33,927 nt of DNA, taken from NCBI GenBank assembly GCA_035290305.1, contig DATDUR010000096.1, positions 1 to 33,927 on the forward strand. The letters are read 5' to 3'. A program made the translations under genes and the position numbers. Below are positions 6,722-30,381 of the stretch, in pieces. How positions within the stretch are numbered: the stretch's first letter is position 1; every line of letters starts with the position of its first letter. The notes below the pieces were generated by a model. The model did no database searches. It saw only the letters and a list, made by a program, of their open reading frames with translations, and was not told the origin of the DNA. The DNA is from Patescibacteria group bacterium (GTDB lineage Bacteria; Patescibacteriota; Patescibacteriia; UBA1558; UBA10009).

Positions 6722-8810
6722 AAATGTAATTTTTGGCGTCAATGGCGTACCACTGGTCGGCGATTTCTTTTTCCGCCGCTATTTTTTCGGCGGCGTCAAA
6801 CCAATAATCGTTTAAAACAAAATAAACGTCGTTAATGCCGGTTAAATATCTGGCCGTGGCAATGATGTCGGGGGTCGGCTGTTTGCCGTAAGCCAGATTT
6901 TCGTATAACTGGTAAAGGCGGCTGCCGGTCGGCACCGGGTAAAAATAATAGCCGTTATAATAATATTTAAAGCCCAGCTCCCTAATGGCCGCGGCCGAAA
7001 CCGGCTGGGCAGCCAAAACGACATAAGGCTGGTTTTGTTGAATCCGTTCAATGAAATTAACGGTCTTAACGTCCACGGCCGAGGTGGAATAGCCGTGGTC
7101 TTCAACGATTTTATCCACCCGGGGATAGCTAAGATAAAAAGAAAGGCTTATGGCCAAAGACAGCAGGATAAAGGAGAGAAAAACCATCAGCGACTTTTGT
7201 TCCGTCAGCTTTTTATAAAATAGATAAAAAGTTATCAGAATAAAGGGCGCGAGCATGTAGACGGCCAGTTTAAAAATCCTGTCCGGGTAAGTAAGCTGTT
7301 CGTAGGAAACCAGCGACAAAAAGGAAATCATGCCTTTAACCAGCAGAAAATTGGCCAAAAGGACGATAAAGCCGAACAAATAAACGGCGTATCTTTTCAA
7401 CTGCCTGTGTTTGTAAATAAAGAAAATCCCCACTATGGCCAGGGCAATGACCAGAAAAATTAAATTATAGCCGAAGTCATAAATTAAATCGGTAAAGGAA
7501 ACGAATTTACGGTAGTAAAAATCAAAGTTTAAAGAATCAAGAAACTGAATGATGTTGGACCACCAGTTTGAGCGCAGGGAAACCTTTAACTGCGACAAGG
7601 TCAGGGAATTTACGATGAAGGCGATCGGCAGGGCCAGAGCGCCGAGGATAATCACTTCCCAGAGCATTGACTGGTGCAGAATGACCGGCAGTTTGAATTT
7701 AGTCTTCCAATGCTGGTAAAGGGCCAGGACGATAAAATAAAACAGCAGGGGTATTCCGGAAATGGGATGGATAGCAATGGTCATCAGAGTTAATATTCCC
7801 AGCGGCCAGAGCGAAGCTTGGGGATGAGTGATGTAATAAAGGGATAAAAGCACGGTCAGCAGGAAAAACAAATTGGCCAGAGCCTGGGGCGTGGTGGAAA
7901 TAAAATCGCCAAAGGGGAAAATTAAAAAGCTTAAAGCCAGCAGTAAGACCAAGCCCGGCTTAGCCTTAAAATTATCTTTAAAAGCGTAAAAAATGGTGGC
8001 CGGCAGATAAACGGCCGCGGTTAGAGGCACCAGGATTTTATCCAGCAGTTCAAGGGAAACATTTAACAGCCGGTGGATGAAAATAATCAGGCTGTACTGG
8101 CCGATGTAATAAAACGGTTTGGGCAAGAGGGTGCCGTTGGCCAGAATCAGCTGAAGGTTGGTCCGGTGGATAAACGGATCATAGTCAAAACCGATTCGGT
8201 AAACTATCCAGGCCGCGGAAAAACTCAAAAAACAGTGCAGGACGATAAAGAAGAGCGGCCAAGAGGTGCCGGCCGAACGGATGATAAAGAATAAACAGAG
8301 GGTGGCGAAAAAGTAAAGATAAAAAATTTCCGGCGGCAGAATTTCCCAGGGCGAGCGGATGCTCTGGCTGGTCTGGGAATTAAAAAGGATGTAAACGATA
8401 ACGATAAAAAACAGGAGGTAAAGGACGGTTAGGGGATTGAATTTGAATCGTTTACGGAAAAATCTCGGGCTAATTTCAAAAACCAGGGGAAATCTCTTAA
8501 CCGCCAAAGTCAAACCCAGGGCCAGTAGTCCCAAAGTGGCGTAAAAAACGGCGGCATTAAGATAAGACAGGTAAAAAGCCAGCGTGCCGATTAAACCGGC
8601 CGCGACCGTTAAAAACAGCAAGCCGTAGATAAATTTACAGGTCCAGGAATTTTTTAAAAACAGATAGTTGCCCAAAGCCAGGCTGTTTAAAATCAGATAT
8701 AACAAGCCGGCCCAGAACAAAAGCCGGCCGTCAGGCCCGGCTAAAAGCAGCACGGCGATTAAAATCAGGTTGAAGGCCAAAAACCTTTTGTAATTAAGGT
8801 TGATTAACAT
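6705..8810 (-). CDS. large polytopic membrane protein with C-terminal soluble domain (possible GT-C-type transferase or polymerase)
   Basis: 701 aa. About 560 aa are almost continuous hydrophobic helices, followed by a roughly 140-aa hydrophilic Tyr/Ala-rich tail. I recognise no catalytic motif. Its 3' end overlaps the convergent methyltransferase gene by 17 nt. Confidence 0.75.
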   Translation of the reverse strand: MLINLNYKRFLAFNLILIAVLLLAGPDGRLLFWAGLLYLILNSLALGNYLFLKNSWTCKFIYGLLFLTVAAGLIGTLAFYLSYLNAAVFYATLGLLALGLTLAVKRFPLVFEISPRFFRKRFKFNPLTVLYLLFFIVIVYILFNSQTSQSIRSPWEILPPEIFYLYFFATLCLFFIIRSAGTSWPLFFIVLHCFLSFSAAWIVYRIGFDYDPFIHRTNLQLILANGTLLPKPFYYIGQYSLIIFIHRLLNVSLELLDKILVPLTAAVYLPATIFYAFKDNFKAKPGLVLLLALSFLIFPFGDFISTTPQALANLFFLLTVLLSLYYITHPQASLWPLGILTLMTIAIHPISGIPLLFYFIVLALYQHWKTKFKLPVILHQSMLWEVIILGALALPIAFIVNSLTLSQLKVSLRSNWWSNIIQFLDSLNFDFYYRKFVSFTDLIYDFGYNLIFLVIALAIVGIFFIYKHRQLKRYAVYLFGFIVLLANFLLVKGMISFLSLVSYEQLTYPDRIFKLAVYMLAPFILITFYLFYKKLTEQKSLMVFLSFILLSLAISLSFYLSYPRVDKIVEDHGYSTSAVDVKTVNFIERIQQNQPYVVLAAQPVSAAAIRELGFKYYYNGYYFYPVPTGSRLYQLYENLAYGKQPTPDIIATARYLTGINDVYFVLNDYWFDAAEKIAAEKEIADQWYAIDAKNYIFRYSK

Positions 8811-22835: not shown

Positions 22836-24525
22836 AAACATTAAAACCAAATACATCTTCGTTTCCGGCGGCGTCTTGAGCGGCCTGGGCAAGGGCGTCT
22901 GCGCCGCCTCCATCGGCTTTCTGCTGGAAAACCGCGGTTATAAAATCGGCGTTATTAAATGCGAAAATTACCTCAACGTGGATTCCGGCACCATTAATCC
23001 CATTGAACATGGCGACGCCTTTTTATGCGAAGACGGCCTGGAGGCCGACATGGACCTGGGCACTTACGAACGCTTTTTAAACCGCGAAATGGGCCATCGC
23101 AATTTCACCACCATGGGCCAGATTTACAAAACCGTGATTGACCGCGAACGGTCCTTTGGCTACAACGGCGAGGACGTGGAAGCCATTCCCCACATTTCCG
23201 ACGAAATCATCGCCCGAATCCAGGAAGCGGGCCAGGACAACGAGATTATCATTATTGAACTGGGCGGCACGGCCGGCGAATACCAGAACATGCTTTATTA
23301 CGAGGCCTGCCGCATTATGAAGGCCGAACTACCCGGACAGGTTTTAAACGTCCACGTCAGCTACGTGCCTTTGCCCGCGCACATTGGCGAACCCAAAACC
23401 ATGCCCACCCAGCTGTCCATGAGAACGGTTATGAGCATGGGCATTTTGCCGGAGTTTTTGGTTTTAAGAAGCGCGGCCACGCTGGATAAAAGACGGCGCT
23501 ACCTCTTGGGCCTTAAAACCAGCGTGCCGGGCGACAACGTCATCATGGCGCCGGATTTGGACAGCATTTACGAACTGCCGCTACTTTTTGCCAAGCAGGA
23601 ATTTGATAAAAAAATCCTTAAATATTTCAAGTTGCACTTAAAGACCCCTCGCCTGGGCGAATGGGCGAAGTTAATCAAAAAAATCAAAATTCAGAAAAAT
23701 AAATCAATTAATATCGTGATTGCCGGCAAATACATCAGCACCGGCGATTATGAACTTTACGATTCTTACGCCGCTTTGATTGAAGCGATTAAACACGCCT
23801 GCTGGCATTTAAACCTTAATCTTAATTTGCGCTTTGTTAATACTGAAGACATAGAAAAAGAGGGCAGCAAGCTGATCGGCAAGCCCGACGGGCTGATTGT
23901 GCCCATCGGCTGGGGCCACCGCGGCGCCGAAGGCAAAATTTCGGCCATCAGATACGCCCGGGAAAAGAAAATTCCTTATCTGGGCCTGTGCTACGGCATG
24001 CAGCTGGCCTGCGTGGAATTTGCCCGCCACGTGGTCGGTTTGTCCGACGCCAACAGCGTGGAAATAAATCCGGAAACCAAAAATCCGATTATCCACGACA
24101 TTCCCATGGACACCAGATACCAGGTGATAAAAGGCGAGGGCACTTCCATGCGTTTGGGCGCTTACGACTGTTATCTCTTGGAAAATTCCCAGGCCGGCAG
24201 AATTTACCTCAAAGCCGGCGAAGGCAGACTGCTTTCCGAGGTCCAAAAGAAAAACGCCAAAATCAAGGCCAAGGGCAGTATCAAAATTTCCGAAAGGCAC
24301 CGGCACAGATACGAATTCAATAACGACTATCGCGAAATTCTGGAAGATAACGGCCTGATTATTTCCGGCACTTCCGCCGACGACTTTTTCGTGGAAATGA
24401 TAGAATTGCCCAAGAAAATGCATCCGTTTTTCATCGCCACCCAGGGCCATCCGGAATACAAATCCAAACCCCTGCATCCTCATCCGATTTTCATTGAATT
24501 CTTAAAAGCCGGTTTAAAAAAATAA
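22825..24525 (+). CDS. pyrG: CTP synthase
   Basis: 566 aa with KYIFVSGGVLSGLGKG and the glutaminase domain motifs LGLCYGMQ and HRHRYEFN. It overlaps rplI by 11 nt. Confidence 0.97.
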   Translation: MVNKNIKTKYIFVSGGVLSGLGKGVCAASIGFLLENRGYKIGVIKCENYLNVDSGTINPIEHGDAFLCEDGLEADMDLGTYERFLNREMGHRNFTTMGQIYKTVIDRERSFGYNGEDVEAIPHISDEIIARIQEAGQDNEIIIIELGGTAGEYQNMLYYEACRIMKAELPGQVLNVHVSYVPLPAHIGEPKTMPTQLSMRTVMSMGILPEFLVLRSAATLDKRRRYLLGLKTSVPGDNVIMAPDLDSIYELPLLFAKQEFDKKILKYFKLHLKTPRLGEWAKLIKKIKIQKNKSINIVIAGKYISTGDYELYDSYAALIEAIKHACWHLNLNLNLRFVNTEDIEKEGSKLIGKPDGLIVPIGWGHRGAEGKISAIRYAREKKIPYLGLCYGMQLACVEFARHVVGLSDANSVEINPETKNPIIHDIPMDTRYQVIKGEGTSMRLGAYDCYLLENSQAGRIYLKAGEGRLLSEVQKKNAKIKAKGSIKISERHRHRYEFNNDYREILEDNGLIISGTSADDFFVEMIELPKKMHPFFIATQGHPEYKSKPLHPHPIFIEFLKAGLKK

Positions 24526-24618
24526 TAAATCAGGGACGCCGCCCCTATTTCCCCTCCTTAGTAAGGAGGGGATTAAGGGGAGGTTATATCATCCGTATTT
24601 CTCCATAAAAAATAACCT

Positions 24619-24644
24619 ACCCGTTTATAAAGACGGGTTTTATT
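24619..24644 (+). terminator. weak intrinsic terminator after pyrG
   Basis: ACCCGT-TTATAAAG-ACGGGT (6-bp stem) followed by TTTATT. It is preceded by a 9-bp GC hairpin, CCCCTCCTT-AGT-AAGGAGGGG, at 24551-24571. Confidence 0.4.
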
Positions 24645-24671
24645 GACATTCGGGTTAAAAAATAGTATATT
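24643..24671 (+). promoter_or_regulatory. sigma70-like promoter upstream of the tRNA-Gln fragment / GIY-YIG / tRNA-Gln unit
   Basis: TTGACA (24643-24648), a 17-nt spacer, then TATATT (24666-24671). The tRNA-like sequence starts about 20 nt downstream. Confidence 0.5.
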
Positions 24672-24690
24672 TTTTCAGTTGAAACTTTAT

Positions 24691-24787
24691 TCGGGGGTCG
24701 TCCCTCGGCCGTAGCCCATAGCCGGGCACGGCCTACGGGCAGCTCGCCCATAGGGCTATGCCCGAGGGAGGCTAATGGTAGGACACC
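24691..24787 (+). pseudogene. remnant of tRNA-Gln 5' part (nt 1-27), split by a 70-nt insertion
   Basis: 24691-24702 plus 24773-24787 are identical to nt 1-12 and 13-27 of the intact tRNA at 25062. The 4 upstream nt (TTAT) are also shared. There is no anticodon loop, T arm or 3' acceptor strand. Confidence 0.8.
24703..24772 (+). repeat. 70-nt GC-rich palindromic insertion (three-way-junction-like) in the D-arm position of the tRNA remnant
   Basis: Closing stem CCCTCGG/CCGAGGG is continued by GTAGCCC/GGGCTAT. It encloses two small hairpins, GCCG-GGCA-CGGC and GGGC-AGCTC-GCCC. The segment is absent from the intact tRNA copy. Confidence 0.6.
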
Positions 24788-25061
24788 TTATAATAATAAG
24801 ATGAAAAGCGATTTATATTATATTTACGTTTTGCTTAGTTTAAAAGATAATAATCTTTATATTGGATGTACTTCAAATTTGGATAAAAGGTTAAAATATC
24901 ATAATCAAGGAAGGGTAAAGTCAACACAAAATAGAAGACCTTTTAAATTAGTTTACTTTGAAGAATATACTGACAAGTACTTAGCTTTTAAAACGGAAAG
25001 GTCTTATAAAACAGCTAAAGGTAAAAGAATCTTAAAATCTAAAATAAAAAATAATACTTAT
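24788..25061 (+). mobile_element. AT-rich GIY-YIG ORF module inserted between duplicated tRNA-Gln 5' segments
   Basis: It is bounded by 31-nt direct repeats (the left copy is interrupted), is strongly AT-rich relative to its flanks, and carries one small nuclease-family ORF. Confidence 0.4.
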
Positions 25062-25076
25062 TCGGGGGTCGTCTAA
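24801..25076 (+). CDS. GIY-YIG nuclease family protein (small, UPF0213-like)
   Basis: 91 aa with YYIYVL...LYIGCTSNLDKRLKYHNQG...YFEE, the GIY/YIG-Arg-Glu pattern. The last 5 codons and the TAA (25074-25076) are encoded by nt 1-15 of the tRNA-Gln gene. Confidence 0.82.
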   Translation: MKSDLYYIYVLLSLKDNNLYIGCTSNLDKRLKYHNQGRVKSTQNRRPFKLVYFEEYTDKYLAFKTERSYKTAKGKRILKSKIKNNTYSGVV

Positions 25077-25135
25077 TGGTAGGACACCAGGTTTTGGTCC
25101 TGGTAATAGGGGTTCGATTCCCTTCCCCCGAGCCA
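25062..25135 (+). tRNA. tRNA-Gln (anticodon UUG), CCA encoded
   Basis: Hand-folded cloverleaf. Acceptor stem TCGGGGG/CCCCCGA with the U1-A72 pair typical of bacterial tRNA-Gln. D loop AATGGTA. Anticodon stem CCAGG/CCTGG with loop TT-TTG-GT. T arm AGGGG-TTCGATT-CCCTT, discriminator G and CCA. Confidence 0.9.
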
Positions 25136-25180
25136 ATAACTTTGAAAATTAATTCAAATCTTTACTAAAGATTTAACTGT

Positions 25181-25648
25181 ATGAATAGTAATATAAAATT
25201 TTCTGAGAACCTTATAAAAGGCAAGGTAGCTGAAGTAATCTTTGAACAGATGTTTAGAGAATCCGGAAAATTTACGATTTTGAAATCTGGTTATGAATAT
25301 ATCTTTCCGGAGTTAGCTCAATACAAACAGTTGCCAAGAGTAGAATTGATGCTTCAGAATATTAAAGATATCCCTGATTTTATTCTAATTTCAGATGATA
25401 AAAGGAAAGTTTATTTAGTGGAAGTAAAATATAGAACAAACTTAGTAAATAAAGAGATTTTAAAAATGGCAGAAAAGACACTAAAAGCATGGAATCACTC
25501 CTGCTTATTTGTCGCTTCACCTGATGGTTTCTATTTTGGACCTTGTAATACCATAGTTAACAATGGCGGCAAAATCGAACTCTTTAAATGGATAAATAAT
25601 GAAATCCAAAACGAGTATCTTAAATTGCTTAAAAAATTTGAAAAATAA
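25181..25648 (+). CDS. hypothetical protein with PD-(D/E)xK nuclease-like motif
   Basis: 155 aa. An N-terminal helix with Glu (KVAEVIFEQMF) is followed by IPDFILISDDKRKVYLVEVKYR (D ... E-x-K spacing). The gene is AT-rich and ends at a strong terminator. Confidence 0.65.
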   Translation: MNSNIKFSENLIKGKVAEVIFEQMFRESGKFTILKSGYEYIFPELAQYKQLPRVELMLQNIKDIPDFILISDDKRKVYLVEVKYRTNLVNKEILKMAEKTLKAWNHSCLFVASPDGFYFGPCNTIVNNGGKIELFKWINNEIQNEYLKLLKKFEK

Positions 25649-25662
25649 AAAAATAATAATTT

Positions 25663-25694
25663 CCGCACGTATTCACTTTACGTGCGGTTTTTTT
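25663..25694 (+). terminator. intrinsic terminator
   Basis: CCGCACGT-(9 nt)-ACGTGCGG forms a perfect 8-bp stem followed by T7. Confidence 0.7.
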
Positions 25695-25723
25695 ATCTCT
25701 TAAACCACTTTTAAAATTTCTTT

Positions 25724-27307: not shown

Positions 27308-27334
27308 AATATTTCGACGAAATTCATTTAATTT

Positions 27335-27343
27335 ATTATAACA
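27335..27343 (-). promoter_or_regulatory. candidate extended -10 promoter for the PilB-like gene
   Basis: The minus strand reads TGTTATAAT, about 27 nt upstream of ATG 27307. There is no convincing -35. Confidence 0.3.
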
Positions 27344-27351
27344 TAATGTTT

Positions 27352-27426
27352 GCGTATATCTGATGTCCCGCGTTAGCGGGATATGGGCGCAGGCTCGCCG
27401 GAGGCGAACCGGAGCCAGATATACGC
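27352..27426 (+). other. 75-nt GC-rich structured element (three-way junction), abutting the left inverted repeat
   Basis: A perfect 11-bp closing stem GCGTATATCTG/CAGATATACGC encloses two hairpins: ATGTCCCGC-GTTA-GCGGGATAT, and GGCT..CCGG-AGGCGAA-CCGG-AGCC. Confidence 0.5.
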
Positions 27427-27498
27427 TGTTAGCTGATGTAGTTAAAAGTTTTTATCCCGACGTAAAGTCGGGACATTATTTAGGGCTATTTTTTATTT
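27427..27498. repeat. left 72-nt inverted repeat (IR-L) of the cassette
   Basis: Its reverse complement matches 30262-30333 at 68/72 positions by hand alignment. It contains the hairpin TCCCGAC-GTAAA-GTCGGGA. Confidence 0.88.
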
Positions 27499-27499
27499 T

Positions 27500-27528
27500 T
27501 TGAAACTGTACTATGTGATTAATATTAT
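27500..27528 (+). promoter_or_regulatory. candidate sigma70-like promoter for the kinase gene
   Basis: TTGAAA (27500-27505), a 17-nt spacer, then TATTAT (27523-27528), immediately inside IR-L. Confidence 0.45.
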
Positions 27529-27592
27529 AAATTAAAATAAGTTAAAATTCAACCCTCAAAGTTTTTTCTTAGGCTTTAGATTATTTTTTAAA

Positions 27593-28597
27593 ATGACAAA
27601 CATTCCTATTTTTGATAAAATAGCATTAAGCTATATAAAGCCATTTTTTATGAAAAATTATCTATTACGAATCAAAAAAATCAAGAAACAATTCGCTATT
27701 TCCAAAGAAGAGCGTTTTGTAGCCGCTCCCAACGGCACTAATTATAAAGTTTTCCTTTCAAATAATTATGTTATCCGTTTTCGAGACAACAACCCCAAAC
27801 TTTTATCAAGAGAGGCAAATTTTTTGAAACAACTTAATCATGCGCTAATACCAAAAGTTTTGTGGTGCGGAGAAATTGATCAACTATTTTTTATGGTTGA
27901 AAATCGACTTCCTGGGAAAACAATAAATTTAGTTTGGAAAAATCTCTCAGTAAGCAATAAAAAGAATATCATTGAACAAATTGTTGAGTTTTTGCAGTAT
28001 CAGAAAATTCAAACAAAAGATTATGTCTATTCAGTAAAGACGGGTAAAAAATATGAAAGATTTTTGGATTATCTTACAGATGGCTTAAAGCAAAAAGCTA
28101 CTAGTATTAAAAAATTTAAACAAACAAATAAAATAATGGGAGACTTATTATTAATTGTTAACGATCCAGAAGTTAGAAATTTGTTCACTAATAAAACAAA
28201 ATCTACTTTAGTCCACGGCGATCTTATTATTCATAATCTGCTTACAGATGGAAAAAATTTAACGGGAGTTCTTGATTGGGAACTGGCATTATGGGGCGAT
28301 CCTGACTATGACCTTTTTCGCCTCTTTTATTATCAAGGATGTGCGAAAGCCTACCAAGAACAGGGAGTCGATGAAACATTTGAATCTGATTATATGGATA
28401 GGTTAATCGCAACGATTTTGAAGTCTGACTTTATAAAAAATAAAAAATTATTCCAGAGAAAATATCAATTAGTGCGCGCTATTTTTTATCTCAATGCGCT
28501 TTATTGGGCAACAAGCTCAGATAGCCCGGAAAAAAATATCAATGAAATTATAGTACAATGGGATAAAAAAAGCGGGACCAAATACTTGCGTACTTAA
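27593..28597 (+). CDS. phosphotransferase enzyme family (APH/choline-kinase-like) protein
   Basis: 334 aa with the catalytic loop VHGDLIIHNLL and the Mg-binding segment GVLDWELALWGDPDYDL. The gene is very AT-rich. An alternative start is Met20 (27650). Confidence 0.85.
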   Translation: MTNIPIFDKIALSYIKPFFMKNYLLRIKKIKKQFAISKEERFVAAPNGTNYKVFLSNNYVIRFRDNNPKLLSREANFLKQLNHALIPKVLWCGEIDQLFFMVENRLPGKTINLVWKNLSVSNKKNIIEQIVEFLQYQKIQTKDYVYSVKTGKKYERFLDYLTDGLKQKATSIKKFKQTNKIMGDLLLIVNDPEVRNLFTNKTKSTLVHGDLIIHNLLTDGKNLTGVLDWELALWGDPDYDLFRLFYYQGCAKAYQEQGVDETFESDYMDRLIATILKSDFIKNKKLFQRKYQLVRAIFYLNALYWATSSDSPEKNINEIIVQWDKKSGTKYLRT

Positions 28598-28603
28598 TCC
28601 CGC
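28565..28603 (-). terminator. intrinsic terminator of the rSAM-peptide operon, embedded in the 3' end of the convergent kinase gene
   Basis: The minus strand reads GCGGGA-TT-AAGTAC-GCAA-GTATTT-GG-TCCCGC followed by T7. It begins 8 nt after the small ORF's stop codon. Confidence 0.6.
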
Positions 28604-28611
28604 AGGCCGCA

Positions 28612-28707
28612 TTATTTGCAGCCAGTTCGTTTACCCGGGAAAGATGCTCCCGACGGCAGGGGCATAACCCTGGCGATCTTGATCTTCTTGATCTTGATCT
28701 TCTTCAT
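28612..28707 (-). CDS. candidate RiPP precursor peptide, 31 aa (absent from the ORF track)
   Basis: Translation is MKKIKIKKIKIARVMPLPSGASFPGKRTGCK*. An AAAGGAGGTGA SD ends 7 nt (AGGAGG core 9 nt) upstream of the ATG. The ORF starts 16 nt after the rSAM stop on the same strand and is followed by a terminator. Confidence 0.6.
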   Translation of the reverse strand: MKKIKIKKIKIARVMPLPSGASFPGKRTGCK

Positions 28708-28723
28708 CTTGTCTCACCTCCTT

Positions 28724-30178
28724 TCATAATGTACAGGTTTGGCAATTACCTACTGCCGCAGTTCCGTTTGACCGAAGATATTCTACGGCAAGCGCTTCTG
28801 TGACCCTGCGATAAAAATCGCACATGTCGTCAAAAAATTTTTGTTGACCCTCGACCGCTGAGCGAGAGACGACCTCTCTGGTAACATGACATTGTCCACC
28901 ACAGGGTCCTTCTATCTCGCAGCCGGAACAGTACGCATCTGTTCCAGGGAAACGGCTGGCAACTATTTGTACCAAATTACCCCTTTCCTCGAATATTTCA
29001 TCAAAACTGTCTATGTGACCGACTGTCGTGGTAGTGTGGCTACAGATTTTAATACTGCCATCCACATTGAATTCAAGGGTTTTGCCCTGAACGGCAGCAC
29101 AAAACGCGTGATCTCCAGACAAGAGGCTTTCTGATGTCAGATTACGGAATGGAGAATCCCACGTTCCAAAGAAGTTGATACCGTGTTCGTTGGCGTACTT
29201 TTTGAGTCGCATGAGTTTTGCAATTCGCTTCTCAACCGGAACGTGAACTAGACCAACGAGATTATAATCGAAGGCGATCGAAGTCATTTTTCTTTCAATC
29301 GCCAAATCAAGAACGTCTGTGTCGACGAGTTCGAAGTTGCCTCTTGTAACTGTGATGCTGAATCCGTCGAGGGGATAGCCAATCTCTACCAAGAGATCAA
29401 ATTTCTCAAGGATGCGAGCAAATGTTCCCTGTCCGCCCTTTGTTACACGGATGGCATCATTAGCTGTATGGGTGCCGTCAAGTGAGGTTGCAATACGGAC
29501 TTGATACCTCTTGAATATCTCGGCGATCTGTCTAGTCATGAGTACTAAGTTTGTATTAATGGCGAACTCAAACGAGAGATCGTCCATTTTGCTACAGTAT
29601 TCCAACACCCGCTCAATAACGGGCCAGTTGACCAGTGGTTCTGCGTTTCCGAAATGGATATTACCATGGGTTCTTCCTTACTCCCTCGTCAACGCAATGT
29701 ATTGGTCTACACATCGTTTTGCAGTTTTCCAAGTCATGTTAAGTTGCGGAGCCGTTTGTTGATATAAAGGCAACGCCTGGTCAGAGTTGGTTTTGGGCTG
29801 GAAGTGAATGCAGTGTGTGCATTTGAAGTTACACGAATCGCTGATTGCGAGGCCCATTCGATCAACCGTCCGTCGCTCTTGCACCTGGGCGAGTTGCTGT
29901 GTTTTTTTCTCTTGCAGGAATTTTTTCTCATCAAAGCCGGATTCGACAAGAAAAAAAATTTCCGCGAACTCTTGAATAGTACCTTTGGGGTCTTCGTCGC
30001 ACATTTTAGAAACTTCCTCCACAGTAGTTAATTGTCTGAAGAAATCTAAAAATTGAAGACCTTCATTATTGACAATCCTGGGATTGCCATACAGCGTGTG
30101 ATAAACCATTGCCATTTCTGATTTAGAATCAGAAATGATGCGGAGATTCGGGGATAACTGATATCTTTGTTTTTTCAC
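28724..30178 (-). pseudogene. radical SAM/SPASM peptide maturase with N-terminal RRE-like domain, interrupted by one in-frame TAA
   Basis: GTG start at 30178, 8 nt after an AAGGAGG SD. A roughly 90-aa PqqD-like N-domain precedes CNFKCTHC (CxxxCxxC). TAA at 29678-29680 is in the same frame as the downstream ORF (29608-28724), which continues IHFGNAEPLVNW and ends with the SPASM motif CSGCEIEGPCGGQC. The protein would be 483 aa if read through. Confidence 0.85.
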
Positions 30179-30219
30179 GTTTCTATCCTCCTTGCTTTTG
30201 ATGTTAAAGAACTGCTGAT

Positions 30220-30249
30220 ACCTTATCACTACCCCCCCCATTTTGTAAA
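30220..30249 (-). promoter_or_regulatory. candidate promoter of the rSAM operon with a G8 tract in the spacer
   Basis: The minus strand reads TTTACA (30249-30244), an 18-nt spacer containing GGGGGGGG (30239-30232), then TGA-TAAGGT (extended -10, 30228-30220). The match to consensus is weak. Confidence 0.25.
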
Positions 30250-30261
30250 GGGCTTTGTCAT

Positions 30262-30333
30262 AAATAAAAAATAGCCCCAAATAATGTCCCGACTTTACGT
30301 CGGGATAAAAACTTTTAATTACTTCAGCTAATA
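30262..30333. repeat. right 72-nt inverted repeat (IR-R) of the cassette
   Basis: It matches the reverse complement of 27427-27498 at 68/72 positions and contains the hairpin GTCCCGAC-TTTAC-GTCGGGAT. Confidence 0.88.
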
Positions 30334-30341
30334 TTGGATAT

Positions 30342-30381
30342 GAGAACATTAGAATATGAGAACATGAAAACATTAGAACAT
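30342..30381 (+). repeat. five contiguous 8-bp tandem units
   Basis: GAGAACAT TAGAATAT GAGAACAT GAAAACAT TAGAACAT, with consensus (G/T)A(G/A)AA(C/T)AT. The array lies directly outside IR-R. Confidence 0.8.

What the first reader, a model, noticed from the sequence alone, without database searches (positions are those of the whole stretch)
27427..30333. 2.9-kb cassette bounded by 72-nt inverted repeats, carrying a RiPP-like module but no recombinase
27427-27498 and 30262-30333 are inverted repeats with 68/72 identity, and each contains a 7-8 bp hairpin. Three genes lie between them: an AT-rich APH-type kinase (+), a radical-SAM/SPASM enzyme (-) and a 31-aa ORF (-). These genes look unlike the surrounding ones. 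The rSAM gene and the small ORF carry the only canonical AGGAGG ribosome-binding sites in the window. The cassette sits between a PilB-like gene and the mraY-murD-ftsW block. It contains no transposase or integrase, and I could find no target-site duplication. Both repeats face inward, each as hairpin, then T-rich stretch, then promoter-like hexamers. They could therefore be transposon-like ends of a non-autonomous element, recombination sites, or duplicated insulator/promoter modules. A peptide-modification module in such a compact genome would be unusual.
Basis: partly seen in the sequence, partly recalled or inferred. Interest (0 to 1): 0.8.

Follow-up and report, generated by a model that had tools for sequence, protein, structure and literature searches.

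The report
Repeated operon heads flanking peptide-modification cassette
The inverted repeat is real: it is two copies of a conserved ~80-base hairpin element that sits just upstream of the promoters of peptide-modification operons in these tiny groundwater bacteria. It brackets a horizontally acquired three-gene cassette and does not look like a pair of transposon ends.

Summary
Arms 27419-27498 and 30262-30341 are 80 nt and 91% complementary, the only long repeat in the window, and five independent assemblies span both.

The cargo is a conserved Patescibacteria module: an APH-type kinase, a 31-aa peptide and an RRE-bearing radical-SAM/SPASM enzyme. Each enzyme has more than 200 homologues. 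All nine loci examined keep the same convergent arrangement, each in a different neighbourhood.

Relatives, including the closest one recovered (MraY 76%), have pilB directly next to the 117-aa/mraY genes. The cassette is therefore an insertion.

The arms belong to a sequence family:
- Orthologous copies flank the module in four other genomes.
- Further copies head other peptide-modification operons.
- None occurs in 1.2 Mb from 80 related genomes.
- Each arm lies immediately upstream of a conserved promoter.
- The hairpin shows compensatory changes and faces inward with a T-tract.

There is no target-site duplication. The most similar module (86% DNA identity) lacks the arms, and so do others.

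Best reading: duplicated operon-head elements, meaning an inward terminator/insulator plus a T-rich upstream tract. These heads also form the junctions of a shuffled cassette array. Transposon ends and recombinase sites are not excluded.

In this window the rSAM gene carries a strain-specific nonsense codon.

The parts
27320..27366 (-). Truncated, degenerate outward-facing type-1 arm. It reaches to within 13 nt of the pilB start codon (27307) and contains TGTTATAAT (27335-27343, - strand), a possible extended -10 for pilB.
   Evidence: It aligns to type-1 arms of L104 and L107 with score 48-54, against a shuffle mean of 17-19 and a maximum of 31. BLAST finds 24/24-nt-class matches.
27363..27416 (+). 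Junction spacer: GATGT, hairpin 1 (27363-27384), ATATGGG, hairpin 2, CAGATAT. It is orthologous to the spacer between arms in L098, L104 and L107.
   Evidence: Fold z-score -2.8 on + and -5.3 on -. Sequence comparison with L098, L104 and L107.
27417..27503 (+). Left arm (kinase side). Box 1 is GTTAGCTGATGTAGTTAAAAGTTTTT, the hairpin is at 27455-27473, and box 2 is ATTATTTAGGGCTATTTTTTATTTTTT.
   Evidence: The covariance model gives 80.2 bits, E 6.7e-13.
27500..27528 (+). Promoter-like site for the kinase (TTGAAA-17-TATTAT), abutting the arm's T-tract. A conserved leader follows, to 27592.
   Evidence: Promoter scan 10/12. Position and sequence are conserved in L098, L104, L107 and L096.
27593..28597 (+). 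APH-family kinase, 334 aa, 31% GC. It carries the catalytic HGDxxxxN motif (LVHGDLIIHN).
   Evidence: Pfam APH 1.3e-17, 64.8 bits against a cut-off of 23.2. 221 homologues that co-occur with the rSAM.
28572..28603 (-). Strong terminator-like hairpin plus T7 after the 31-aa ORF. It overlaps the 3' end of the convergent kinase gene.
   Evidence: Terminator scan: 14 pairs.
28612..28707 (-). 31-aa precursor-like peptide MKKIKIKKIKIARVMPLPSGASFPGKRTGCK with an AGGAGG ribosome-binding site.
   Evidence: The same ORF, in the same position and with the same RBS, is present in all 7 loci checked. Consensus MKKIKIKKIKIA[KR]VxPLxSGASFPGKRTxCK.
28724..30178 (-). Radical-SAM/SPASM peptide maturase with an N-terminal RRE-like domain, 484 codons, GTG start, AGGAGG RBS. 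In this window it is interrupted by an in-frame TAA at 29678-29680.
   Evidence: CNFKCTHC and CSGCEIEGPCGGQC motifs are present. Nearest structures are TigE 8VPO (E 1.7e-35) and CteB 5WGG. L085, L087 and L091 read CAA (Gln) at the stop position.
30220..30251 (-). G-rich promoter box CCTTTACAAAATGGGGGGGGTAGTGATAAGGT (-35-like TTTACA, TG-extended -10-like TAAGGT) for the rSAM-peptide operon.
   Evidence: Conserved upstream of the rSAM in L096, L098, L104 and L107, and upstream of two other peptide operons (L104 4044-4075; L107 about 7575-7610).
30257..30344 (-). Right arm (rSAM side), hairpin at 30287-30305.
   Evidence: The covariance model gives 81.3 bits, E 3.9e-13.
30340..30381 (+). Five 8-nt tandem units (ATGAGAAC/ATTAGAAT) just outside the right arm, in the remaining upstream region of the 117-aa gene. 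They are not part of the conserved module.
   Evidence: family D1. They have no counterpart in other loci.

Best explanation
The 2.9-kb 'cassette' is one copy of a three-gene peptide-modification (RiPP-type) module that is widespread in Patescibacteria. It comprises an RRE-bearing radical-SAM/SPASM enzyme plus a 31-aa precursor on one transcription unit, and a convergent APH-family kinase on the other.

It sits as a roughly 3.0-kb insertion (about 27320-30344) in what is, in relatives, a short divergent pilB / 117-aa-mraY intergenic region.

The inverted repeat is not a pair of transposon termini. It is two copies of an ~80-nt structured 'operon-head' element with this layout: conserved box, GC hairpin of variable sequence, conserved box, T-tract. 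Each copy is placed immediately upstream of, and pointing at, the promoter of one transcription unit. Because the two units converge, the two heads are inverted.

Inferred function: the hairpin plus U-rich tail acts as an inward-facing intrinsic terminator that insulates each unit from read-in transcription. The T-tract acts as an UP-like upstream promoter element, and the conserved boxes may be a shared operator.

In other genomes the same heads occur back to back as type-1 arm, ~60-nt spacer, type-2 arm. These composites form the junctions between neighbouring peptide cassettes. The window's left flank is such a junction, with its outer arm decayed. Homologous recombination between these repeated junctions, together with horizontal transfer, most plausibly accounts for duplication, loss and relocation of cassettes.

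Shown: the repeat, its family, its position relative to promoters, hairpin covariation, conservation of the module, empty sites in relatives. Inferred: terminator/insulator/UP activity, the recombination role, the chemistry of the peptide.
For: (1) The module is conserved. All nine loci fetched through rSAM or kinase homologues have rSAM, then a small ORF, then a convergent APH, in nine different neighbourhoods. The rSAM has 208 homologues and the kinase 221, with overlapping contigs.

(2) It is an insertion. About 30 of 80 relatives keep pilB(-) ... p117(+)-mraY without it. The closest relative recovered (L110, MraY 76%) has only 184 nt between the two genes.

(3) The arms are a family. Orthologous IR arms flank the module in L098 (71 nt, 94%, 2760 nt apart) and in L104 and L107. 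L109 has an arm on the kinase side only.

(4) The arms head operons.
- L104 3954-4031 precedes the same G-rich promoter and a 46-aa ORF.
- L107 7705-7624 precedes that promoter and a 41-aa Cys-rich peptide, an rSAM/SPASM, a PqqD-like protein and a 203-aa protein.
- The two arm subtypes track promoter type.

(5) Specificity. The covariance model finds only the two window arms in 1.28 Mb of window plus relatives. It finds 17 arms in 130 kb of module-bearing loci, all beside peptide cassettes.

(6) Structure. 90% of cells are paired, against 40-53% when the partners are slid. 5 of 6 inner-helix pairs show double changes. There are 12 G.U pairs on the inward-reading strand, against 2 that would be G.U on the other strand. 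The scan calls both arms terminator-like, facing inward.

(7) The same design recurs with unrelated sequence. L094 has an 89-nt repeat with a GC hairpin ahead of both units. L096 has hairpin plus T-tract directly upstream of the same promoter.

(8) Arms that head no operon are decayed: window 27320-27366 and the outer arms of L098.
Against: No expression data exist. Terminator, UP-element and operator roles are inferred from sequence alone.

A terminator upstream of divergently arranged neighbours has little obvious read-in to stop in this window, since pilB and p117 both point away.

Some intact arms head no gene (L107 5229-5311; L104 5640-5743). A purely regulatory role does not explain these.

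Arms within a genome are more alike (91-96%) than orthologous arms between genomes (about 75-87%). This needs gene conversion or recent duplication.

Only nine module-bearing loci of at most 21 kb were examined. I could not search whole genomes for further arm copies or for a recombinase acting in trans.
Confidence: 0.58

Rival explanations
1. The arms are terminal inverted repeats of a non-autonomous, MITE-like or composite transposon that carries the three genes and is moved in trans by a transposase encoded elsewhere.
For: Cargo without a recombinase is bounded by long IRs. The module lies in different neighbourhoods in every genome. The arm-spacer-arm composites of about 230-270 nt look like MITEs, and intact arms can sit where they head no gene. 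The module's GC content is constant across hosts of 32-45% GC. The nearest non-self homologue is 86-88% identical for rSAM and APH, against 78% for MraY, which suggests horizontal transfer.
Against: - There is no target-site duplication in the window or in L098.
- The arms point their T-rich ends inward at promoters, at a fixed short distance.
- Arm subtype follows promoter type.
- The closest module (L094, 86.5% DNA identity) shares only the genes. L096 shares genes and promoters but not arms. So the unit of inheritance is not bounded by the arms.
- No arm was found away from a peptide cassette in 1.4 Mb.
- No transposase was found in any locus examined.
Confidence: 0.14
2. The arm-spacer-arm junctions are sites for a site-specific recombinase (integron-, Xer/pdif- or invertase-like). 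They allow whole peptide cassettes to be captured, exchanged or duplicated as units.
For: In L107 two cassettes lie side by side, each bounded by inverted arms and separated by a conserved ~60-nt spacer of fixed polarity. In L106 one cassette is tandemly duplicated with the junction. The window, L098 and L104 all have such junctions at the module's edge. The hairpin is maintained by covariation, as in attC sites.
Against: No recombinase gene lies in or near any of the loci. The spacer has no recognisable dif- or attC-like core. Ordinary homologous recombination between 230-nt repeats explains the tandem duplication equally well. The G.U bias points to RNA rather than DNA structure. Modules without arms exist.
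Confidence: 0.12
3. The arms are transcribed 5' leaders or the 3' ends of small RNAs. Transcription would start in the spacer, and the hairpin/U-tract would act as a conditional attenuator (riboswitch-like) that co-regulates all operons of the pathway.
For: The hairpin plus U-rich tail reads inward, and G.U pairs are tolerated only on that strand. The spacer folds stably. The same element precedes several functionally related operons.
Against: Good sigma-70-like promoters with conserved TTGACA/TATTAT hexamers lie downstream of the arms, not upstream. The GC-rich spacer has no promoter-like hexamers. No Rfam family matches even at a permissive threshold. The conserved boxes are A/T-rich and largely single-stranded, so no aptamer-like fold is evident.
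Confidence: 0.1
4. The repeat is a chance match or an assembly artefact (a chimeric join or a mis-collapsed repeat).
For: Two assemblies break inside the cassette, at window 29773-29936.
Against: The 80-nt repeat at 91% has 0 expected by shuffling. Three other assemblies span both arms and both flanks. The breaks coincide with a real 344-nt deletion polymorphism, not with the arms. Orthologous IRs exist in other genomes.
Confidence: 0.01

Closest known systems
Radical-SAM/SPASM RiPP clusters with an RRE-bearing maturase: cyclopropylglycine synthases TvgB/TigE (PDB 8VPO, PMC10878394) and thioether formers CteB (SCIFF, 5WGG) and PapB (ranthipeptides)
   Same: The enzyme has an N-terminal RRE-like domain, a CxxxCxxC motif and a SPASM Cys cluster. 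It aligns over residues 23-435 to TigE (E 1.7e-35) and over 31-295 to CteB. The best NCBIfam hits are PapB, RumMC and SCIFF maturases. A short precursor gene is adjacent. The peptide has a repetitive Ile/Val-containing stretch (KIKIKKIKI, with variable repeat number in L101), like TvgA/TigB, and one Cys near the C-terminus.
   Different: All NCBIfam scores are far below family cut-offs. The GYW motif that defines cyclopropyl synthases is GTW here, conserved in 104 of 120 homologues. The precursor lies downstream of the enzyme and is only 31 aa. An APH-type kinase is an obligate partner. The module has no transporter or protease. Every taxon name attached to a homologue is Patescibacteria.
MITE-flanked or IMU-type composite structures: short IS-derived inverted-repeat elements bracketing resistance genes or integrons and mobilised in trans. 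This comparison rests on my own knowledge.
   Same: Cargo with no recombinase is bracketed by two copies of a short repeated element. The composite arm-spacer-arm units are MITE-sized and palindromic.
   Different: There is no target-site duplication. The arms are tied to promoters and to one functional class of operon. No arm was found away from a peptide cassette in the DNA examined. The closest modules lack the arms.
pdif modules of Acinetobacter plasmids and integron attC cassettes. This comparison rests on my own knowledge.
   Same: Gene modules without their own recombinase are delimited by short structured sites. In arrays the sites alternate in orientation (pdif) or form hairpins (attC). 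Cassettes can be duplicated or exchanged.
   Different: There is no XerC/D-like or attC-like core and no integrase or Xer association. The sites are ~80 nt and double (two arms plus a spacer). Each cassette carries its own promoters. The locus is chromosomal.
Intrinsic terminators used as insulators, and UP elements upstream of -35 hexamers. Also repeated intergenic palindromes that carry regulatory signals, such as Neisseria Correia elements and enterobacterial REP/BIME. This comparison rests on my own knowledge.
   Same: A GC hairpin followed by a U-rich tract. An A/T-rich tract abuts the -35 hexamer. The same small structured element is re-used at several intergenic sites.
   Different: The element is restricted to the heads of peptide-modification operons rather than being scattered. 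It has two subtypes matched to two promoter types. Its activity is untested.

Membership tests
Non-autonomous TIR transposon (MITE-like or composite) | Terminal inverted repeats at the very ends of the mobile unit | tested here: inconclusive
   Long IRs are present. However, homology with other genomes extends beyond the left arm to about 27320. In the closest module, homology stops inside the arms, at the genes (L094).
Non-autonomous TIR transposon (MITE-like or composite) | Target-site duplication flanking the ends | tested here: not met
   No direct repeat abuts the arms in the window. The 51-nt direct repeats in L098 are the conserved junction spacer, not duplicated target.
Non-autonomous TIR transposon (MITE-like or composite) | Multiple dispersed copies at unrelated sites, and a cognate transposase in the genome | tested here: inconclusive
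   No arm was found away from a peptide cassette in 1.4 Mb held. The exact core pattern gave 0 hits in genome contigs and viral contigs, and only this organism in metagenome contigs. No transposase lies in any locus. Whole genomes of arm-bearing organisms could not be searched.
Intrinsic (rho-independent) terminator | GC-rich stem-loop followed directly by a U-rich tract on the transcribed strand | tested here: met
   The scan calls both arms, facing inward: 7 bp with 5 GC pairs, tail CATTATTT then T6. The stem is kept by compensatory changes, and G.U pairs occur only on the inward strand. Termination activity itself is not testable here.
Radical-SAM/SPASM RiPP maturase | CxxxCxxC radical-SAM motif, SPASM auxiliary-cluster cysteines, RRE domain, adjacent precursor peptide | tested here: met
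   CNFKCTHC and CSGCEIEGPCGGQC are present. Pfam Radical_SAM is above its cut-off. The alignment to TigE and CteB starts at residue 23-31, inside their RRE domains. The 31-aa ORF is conserved in 7 loci. In this window the gene is broken by a TAA.
Cyclopropylglycine synthases (TvgB/TigE family) | Strictly conserved GYW motif whose Tyr ligates auxiliary cluster I (PMC10878394) | tested here: not met
   The aligned position reads GTW. FFGTWD occurs in 104 of 120 homologues.
Ranthipeptide / sactipeptide maturases (PapB, SCIFF CteB, RumMC) | Score above the NCBIfam family cut-off; Cys-rich precursor | tested here: not met
   The best score is 91 bits against a cut-off of 340 (PapB). All families fall far below their cut-offs. 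The precursor has a single Cys.
APH / protein-kinase-like phosphotransferases | Pfam APH domain above threshold; catalytic HGDxxxxN loop and a downstream Asp | tested here: met
   PF01636 scores 64.8 bits against a cut-off of 23.2. LVHGDLIIHN and VLDWE are present. The protein falls below the cut-off of every named resistance or thiamine-kinase family, so the substrate is unknown.
Integron cassette / pdif module | attC or XerC/D-type core site and a linked integrase or Xer system | not tested
   No recombinase gene lies in any locus. I ran no formal attC or dif model search. By eye the spacer has no such core.

The most novel reading that the evidence does not exclude
The arm-spacer-arm units are the attachment and exchange sites of a previously unrecognised cassette system in Candidate Phyla Radiation bacteria. 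Under this reading, self-contained peptide-modification cassettes (precursor, radical-SAM enzyme, accessory kinase or protease, own promoters) are captured, duplicated and passed between genomes at structured ~230-nt junctions, by a recombinase encoded elsewhere or by a hairpin-dependent mechanism. This would be an integron- or pdif-like logic for natural-product genes in ultra-small genomes. A linked possibility is that the product is a new RiPP class made by a GTW-motif relative of cyclopropyl synthases together with a kinase.
Probability: 0.15. Interest if true: 0.8.

Novelty: new variant of a known kind. Interest (0 to 1): 0.55.

Why it matters
Patescibacteria have tiny genomes and are thought to live attached to other cells. 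This work shows three things about them.

First, they widely share a compact peptide-modification module: more than 200 homologues, always an rSAM enzyme, a 31-aa basic peptide and a kinase.

Second, the module moves between lineages. Its base composition stays the same in hosts of 32-45% GC, and its proteins are more similar between genomes than MraY is.

Third, it comes with its own portable control heads: an ~80-nt structured element plus a promoter. These heads are re-used for other peptide operons and form the junctions of cassette arrays.

That yields a concrete, testable unit for two open questions: what small molecules these uncultured bacteria make, and how gene cassettes are kept insulated and shuffled in genomes with almost no classical mobile elements.

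The enzyme family is also a defined sister group (GTW instead of GYW) to the recently described cyclopropylglycine synthases, with an obligate kinase partner. That suggests chemistry not yet described.

Tried and rejected
- Exact-pattern scans for the arm core (TATCCCGACN5GTCGGGACATTA). There were 0 hits in 185k species genomes and in IMG/VR. The single metagenome hit is the same organism. Two conserved-box patterns also gave 0 hits in viral contigs. So there is no evidence for a phage vehicle or for a high-copy repeat. These exact patterns miss diverged copies.
- Rfam at gathering and at permissive thresholds gave only tRNA-Gln and noise.
- I looked for an empty site within the same population. 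All 12 contigs from the population carry the cassette. Empty sites were found only in more distant relatives.
- Target-site duplication: none at any plausible boundary.
- Inversion switch: rejected, because both promoters lie inside the arms, so flipping the segment would change nothing.
- Alternative genetic code for the in-frame TAA: rejected, because sister contigs read CAA there and all other genes read normally in table 11.
- The kinase as a separately acquired gene, suggested by its low GC: rejected, because it is 30-33% GC and linked to the rSAM in all nine loci.
- Literature searches for this module, for kinase-plus-SPASM RiPPs and for MITEs in Patescibacteria found nothing relevant in the held library.

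Full report
**1. The observation**

The inverted repeat is real and slightly longer than reported. Arms 27419-27498 and 30262-30341 are 80 nt and 91% complementary, with a 70-nt core at 67/70. It is the only long repeat in the window. Its 29-nt core occurs twice, against none in 100 shuffles.

Each arm contains the hairpin TCCCGAC-GTAAA-GTCGGGA followed by a T-rich tract, and both arms read inward.

Between the arms lie three genes:
- An APH-type kinase on the + strand, 27593-28597 (Pfam APH 1.3e-17).
- A radical-SAM/SPASM gene on the - strand, 28724-30178.
- A 31-aa ORF on the - strand, 28612-28707.

AGGAGG correctly placed before a start codon occurs only at the two minus-strand genes. There is no recombinase and no target-site duplication.

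The region is not a chimera. Three other assemblies span both arms and both flanks at 99.1-99.9% identity.

Two corrections to the finding:
- The rSAM frame in this window has an in-frame TAA at 29678-29680.
- Only the kinase is compositionally deviant, at 31% GC. The rSAM gene is 45%, like the window.

**2. The cargo is a conserved, widespread module**

The intact rSAM (allele from contig L085) has 208 homologues at E<=1e-10, up to 86% identical. The kinase has 221 homologues, up to 88% identical, on many of the same contigs. Every taxon name attached to either set is Patescibacteria.

Nine loci fetched through these homologues all show the same arrangement: rSAM, then a small ORF, then a convergent APH. 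Each locus sits in a different neighbourhood.

The small ORF is a real gene. It is present with the same ribosome-binding site in all seven loci checked, with consensus MKKIKIKKIKIA[KR]VxPLxSGASFPGKRTxCK and one extra KI unit in L101.

The enzyme has:
- The CxxxCxxC and SPASM cysteine motifs.
- An N-terminal RRE-like domain.
- As nearest solved structures, TigE (the methyl-cyclopropylglycine synthase, 8VPO, E 1.7e-35, residues 23-435) and CteB (5WGG) (PMC10878394).

The GYW motif that defines cyclopropyl synthases is GTW here, in 104 of 120 homologues. All NCBIfam RiPP-maturase scores are far below family cut-offs. It is therefore an uncharacterised sister family.

A peptide-modification module is thus not unusual in these compact genomes.

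**3. It is an insertion at this locus**

Among 80 species-representative relatives found through MraY, about 30 keep pilB(-) upstream of the 117-aa gene and mraY. None has the kinase or the rSAM there. Five have a ~610-aa ORF of the protein-mannosyltransferase (PMT/ArnT) type, judged by eye from its N-terminal sequence, at the same spot.

The closest relative recovered from a 5.8-billion-protein search (MraY 76%) has a type II/IV secretion ATPase and the 117-aa homologue only 184 nt apart. The same mraY-murD-ftsW-murG-murC-murB run follows, and there are no arms.

All twelve contigs of this organism's own population carry the cassette.

Two observations point to horizontal spread:
- The best non-self MraY is 78% identical, while the module proteins reach 86-88%.
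- The module keeps about 45% GC (rSAM) and about 30% GC (kinase) in hosts of 32-45% GC.

**4. What the arms are**

Orthologous arms flank the module in L098 (71 nt, 94%, 2760 nt apart) and in L104 and L107. L109 has one on the kinase side only.

They share two conserved boxes:
- GTTATCGGAAATAATTAAAAGTTTTT
- ATTATTTGGGGCTATTTTTTATTTTT

These boxes lie on either side of a hairpin whose sequence differs between genomes but stays paired. On a 12-arm alignment:
- 90% of cells pair, against 40-53% when the partners are slid.
- 5 of 6 inner-helix pairs show changes on both sides.
- G.U pairs (12) occur almost only on the inward-reading strand (2 on the other).

Caveat: the arms fall into few lineages, so the independent events are few.

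Each arm ends 0-25 nt upstream of a conserved promoter:
- On the kinase side, an A/T-rich promoter, TTGAAA-17-TATTAT.
- On the rSAM side, a G-rich one, TTGACA...GGGGGGGGTAGTGATAAGGT.

The arms come in two subtypes that track these promoters.

The same arm plus G-rich promoter heads other peptide operons:
- A 46-aa Gly/Lys-rich ORF in L104.
- In L106-L108, a 41-aa Cys-rich peptide with a second rSAM/SPASM, a PqqD-like protein and a 203-aa protein.

A covariance model of the arm gives a clear contrast:
- Only the two window arms in 1.28 Mb of window plus relatives.
- 17 arms in 130 kb of module-bearing loci, all beside such cassettes.

No Rfam family matches.

**5. Junction architecture**

In L107 the arms occur back to back: type-1 arm (reversed), a ~60-nt spacer (GATGT, hairpin, ATATGGG, hairpin, CAGATAT), then a type-2 arm. 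This composite sits between two cassettes, each of which is therefore IR-bounded. In L106 one cassette is tandemly duplicated together with the junction.

L098 and L104 have such composites on both sides of the module, with the outer arms decayed. This produces 51-211-nt direct repeats outside the IR.

The window's left flank has the same structure:
- A truncated outward type-1 arm at 27320-27366, with alignment score 54 against a shuffle maximum of 31.
- The spacer at 27363-27416.
- The inward arm.

Module-derived sequence therefore runs from about 27320, 13 nt from the pilB start codon, to 30344.

**6. Why not transposon ends**

- There is no target-site duplication.
- Homology between genomes is nested rather than bounded by the arms. 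L094 (86.5% DNA identity, the closest) shares only the genes. L096 shares genes and promoters. L098, L104, L107 and L109 share the arms as well.
- Arm-less modules show the same design with other sequences. L094 has an 89-nt repeat with a GC hairpin ahead of both units. L096 has a hairpin and T-tract abutting the same promoter. L101 has an unrelated 245-nt IR.
- This recurrence points to a function at operon heads, plus turnover by recombination.
- Against that, intact arms that head nothing (L107 5229-5311, L104 5640-5743) and the MITE-like composites keep a mobility or recombination role alive.

**7. Mechanism proposed**

I put this at about 0.58. Each arm is an inward-facing terminator/insulator. 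Its T-tract serves as an UP-like element for the promoter just downstream, and the conserved boxes may be a shared operator. The IR exists simply because the two units converge. The repeated heads also serve as homology for cassette duplication, loss and exchange. All activities are inferred, not shown.

Rivals are a TIR transposon moved in trans (0.14), site-specific cassette recombination (0.12), a transcribed leader or sRNA (0.10) and artefact (0.01).

**8. Verdict**

What is new:
- The Patescibacteria-wide rSAM-peptide-kinase module.
- Its GTW enzyme family.
- The cassette-specific structured head and junction element.

Novelty: new variant of a known kind. Interest: 0.55.

Noticed in passing
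window 29678-29680 and 29688; L085, L087, L091: The rSAM gene carries a strain-specific nonsense codon. The window has TAA where three sister contigs have CAA (Gln), and there is a neighbouring M/T difference. The gene is inactivated or truncated in the window's strain but intact in others.
   Followed up: yes
window 29849-30192; L082 1-111 and L089 1341-1371: A second population variant deletes about 344 nt. It joins the promoter (...GGTAGTG) to codon ~110 of the rSAM gene and removes the -10, the RBS, the start codon and the RRE domain. Two other assemblies break at 29773-29936, probably because of this polymorphism. The rSAM gene seems to be decaying in this population.
   Followed up: partly
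window 30340-30381: Five tandem 8-nt units (ATGAGAAC/ATTAGAAT) lie immediately outside the right arm, upstream of the 117-aa gene. They have no counterpart in other loci and their function is unknown.
   Followed up: no
window 27335-27343 (- strand): The decayed outward arm next to pilB reads TGTTATAAT, an extended -10-like motif about 28 nt upstream of the pilB start. The insertion may have supplied pilB's present promoter.
   Followed up: no
window 24500-25700: This is an AT-rich stretch (31-37% GC). It holds a GIY-YIG nuclease gene (24801-25076) that overlaps tRNA-Gln (25062-25135) by 15 nt, followed by a 155-aa ORF with weak restriction-endonuclease/TnsA-like hits. It may be another small acquired segment next to a tRNA.
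   Followed up: no
L107 5286-7428; L106 2907-7390: A second peptide cassette uses the same arm and G-rich promoter. It comprises a 41-aa Cys-rich peptide (MNQQNKAVVAKFSVLKGSMPKLTPMRMATLKCAGQCTCRCK), a 342-aa rSAM/SPASM, an 85-aa PqqD-like protein and a 203-aa protein. It is tandemly duplicated in L106. Homologues of the 203-aa protein sit next to the kinase in L096 and L101.
   Followed up: partly
L104 3954-4278: A 46-aa Gly/Lys-rich ORF (MGKKNTPTRGPSKHGGWGGKRASKGGGLSTTKSGGKSGTSGGGKKK) has the same arm, promoter and RBS type as the rSAM operon. An M16 peptidase gene separates it from the module.
   Followed up: no
rSAM homologues P0001-P0120; window about 29150 (FFGTWD): The whole enzyme family has GTW where cyclopropylglycine synthases have the Tyr-ligand motif GYW. 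The precursor's KI repeats vary in number between genomes, which recalls the repeat substrates of TvgB and TigE.
   Followed up: partly
all nine module loci: The kinase gene is 30-33% GC and the rSAM gene 42-49% GC in every genome, whatever the host GC (32-45%). The two halves of the module keep very different compositions while travelling together.
   Followed up: partly
L004-L079 (relatives), upstream of mraY: Many relatives have an ORF-free 0.6-1.1-kb gap between pilB and the 117-aa gene. Five (L010, L017, L019, L020, L078) have, at the same spot, a ~610-aa ORF that by eye resembles a PMT/ArnT-type glycosyltransferase; I ran no family search on it. The site appears to be a recurrent place for gene gain.
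   Followed up: partly
L094 3937-5217: Another rSAM/SPASM gene (350 aa) is followed by a 69-aa ORF ending in WSDGWSDSWSDSWSDAV. This repeat-type precursor candidate lies 2 kb from the module.
   Followed up: no
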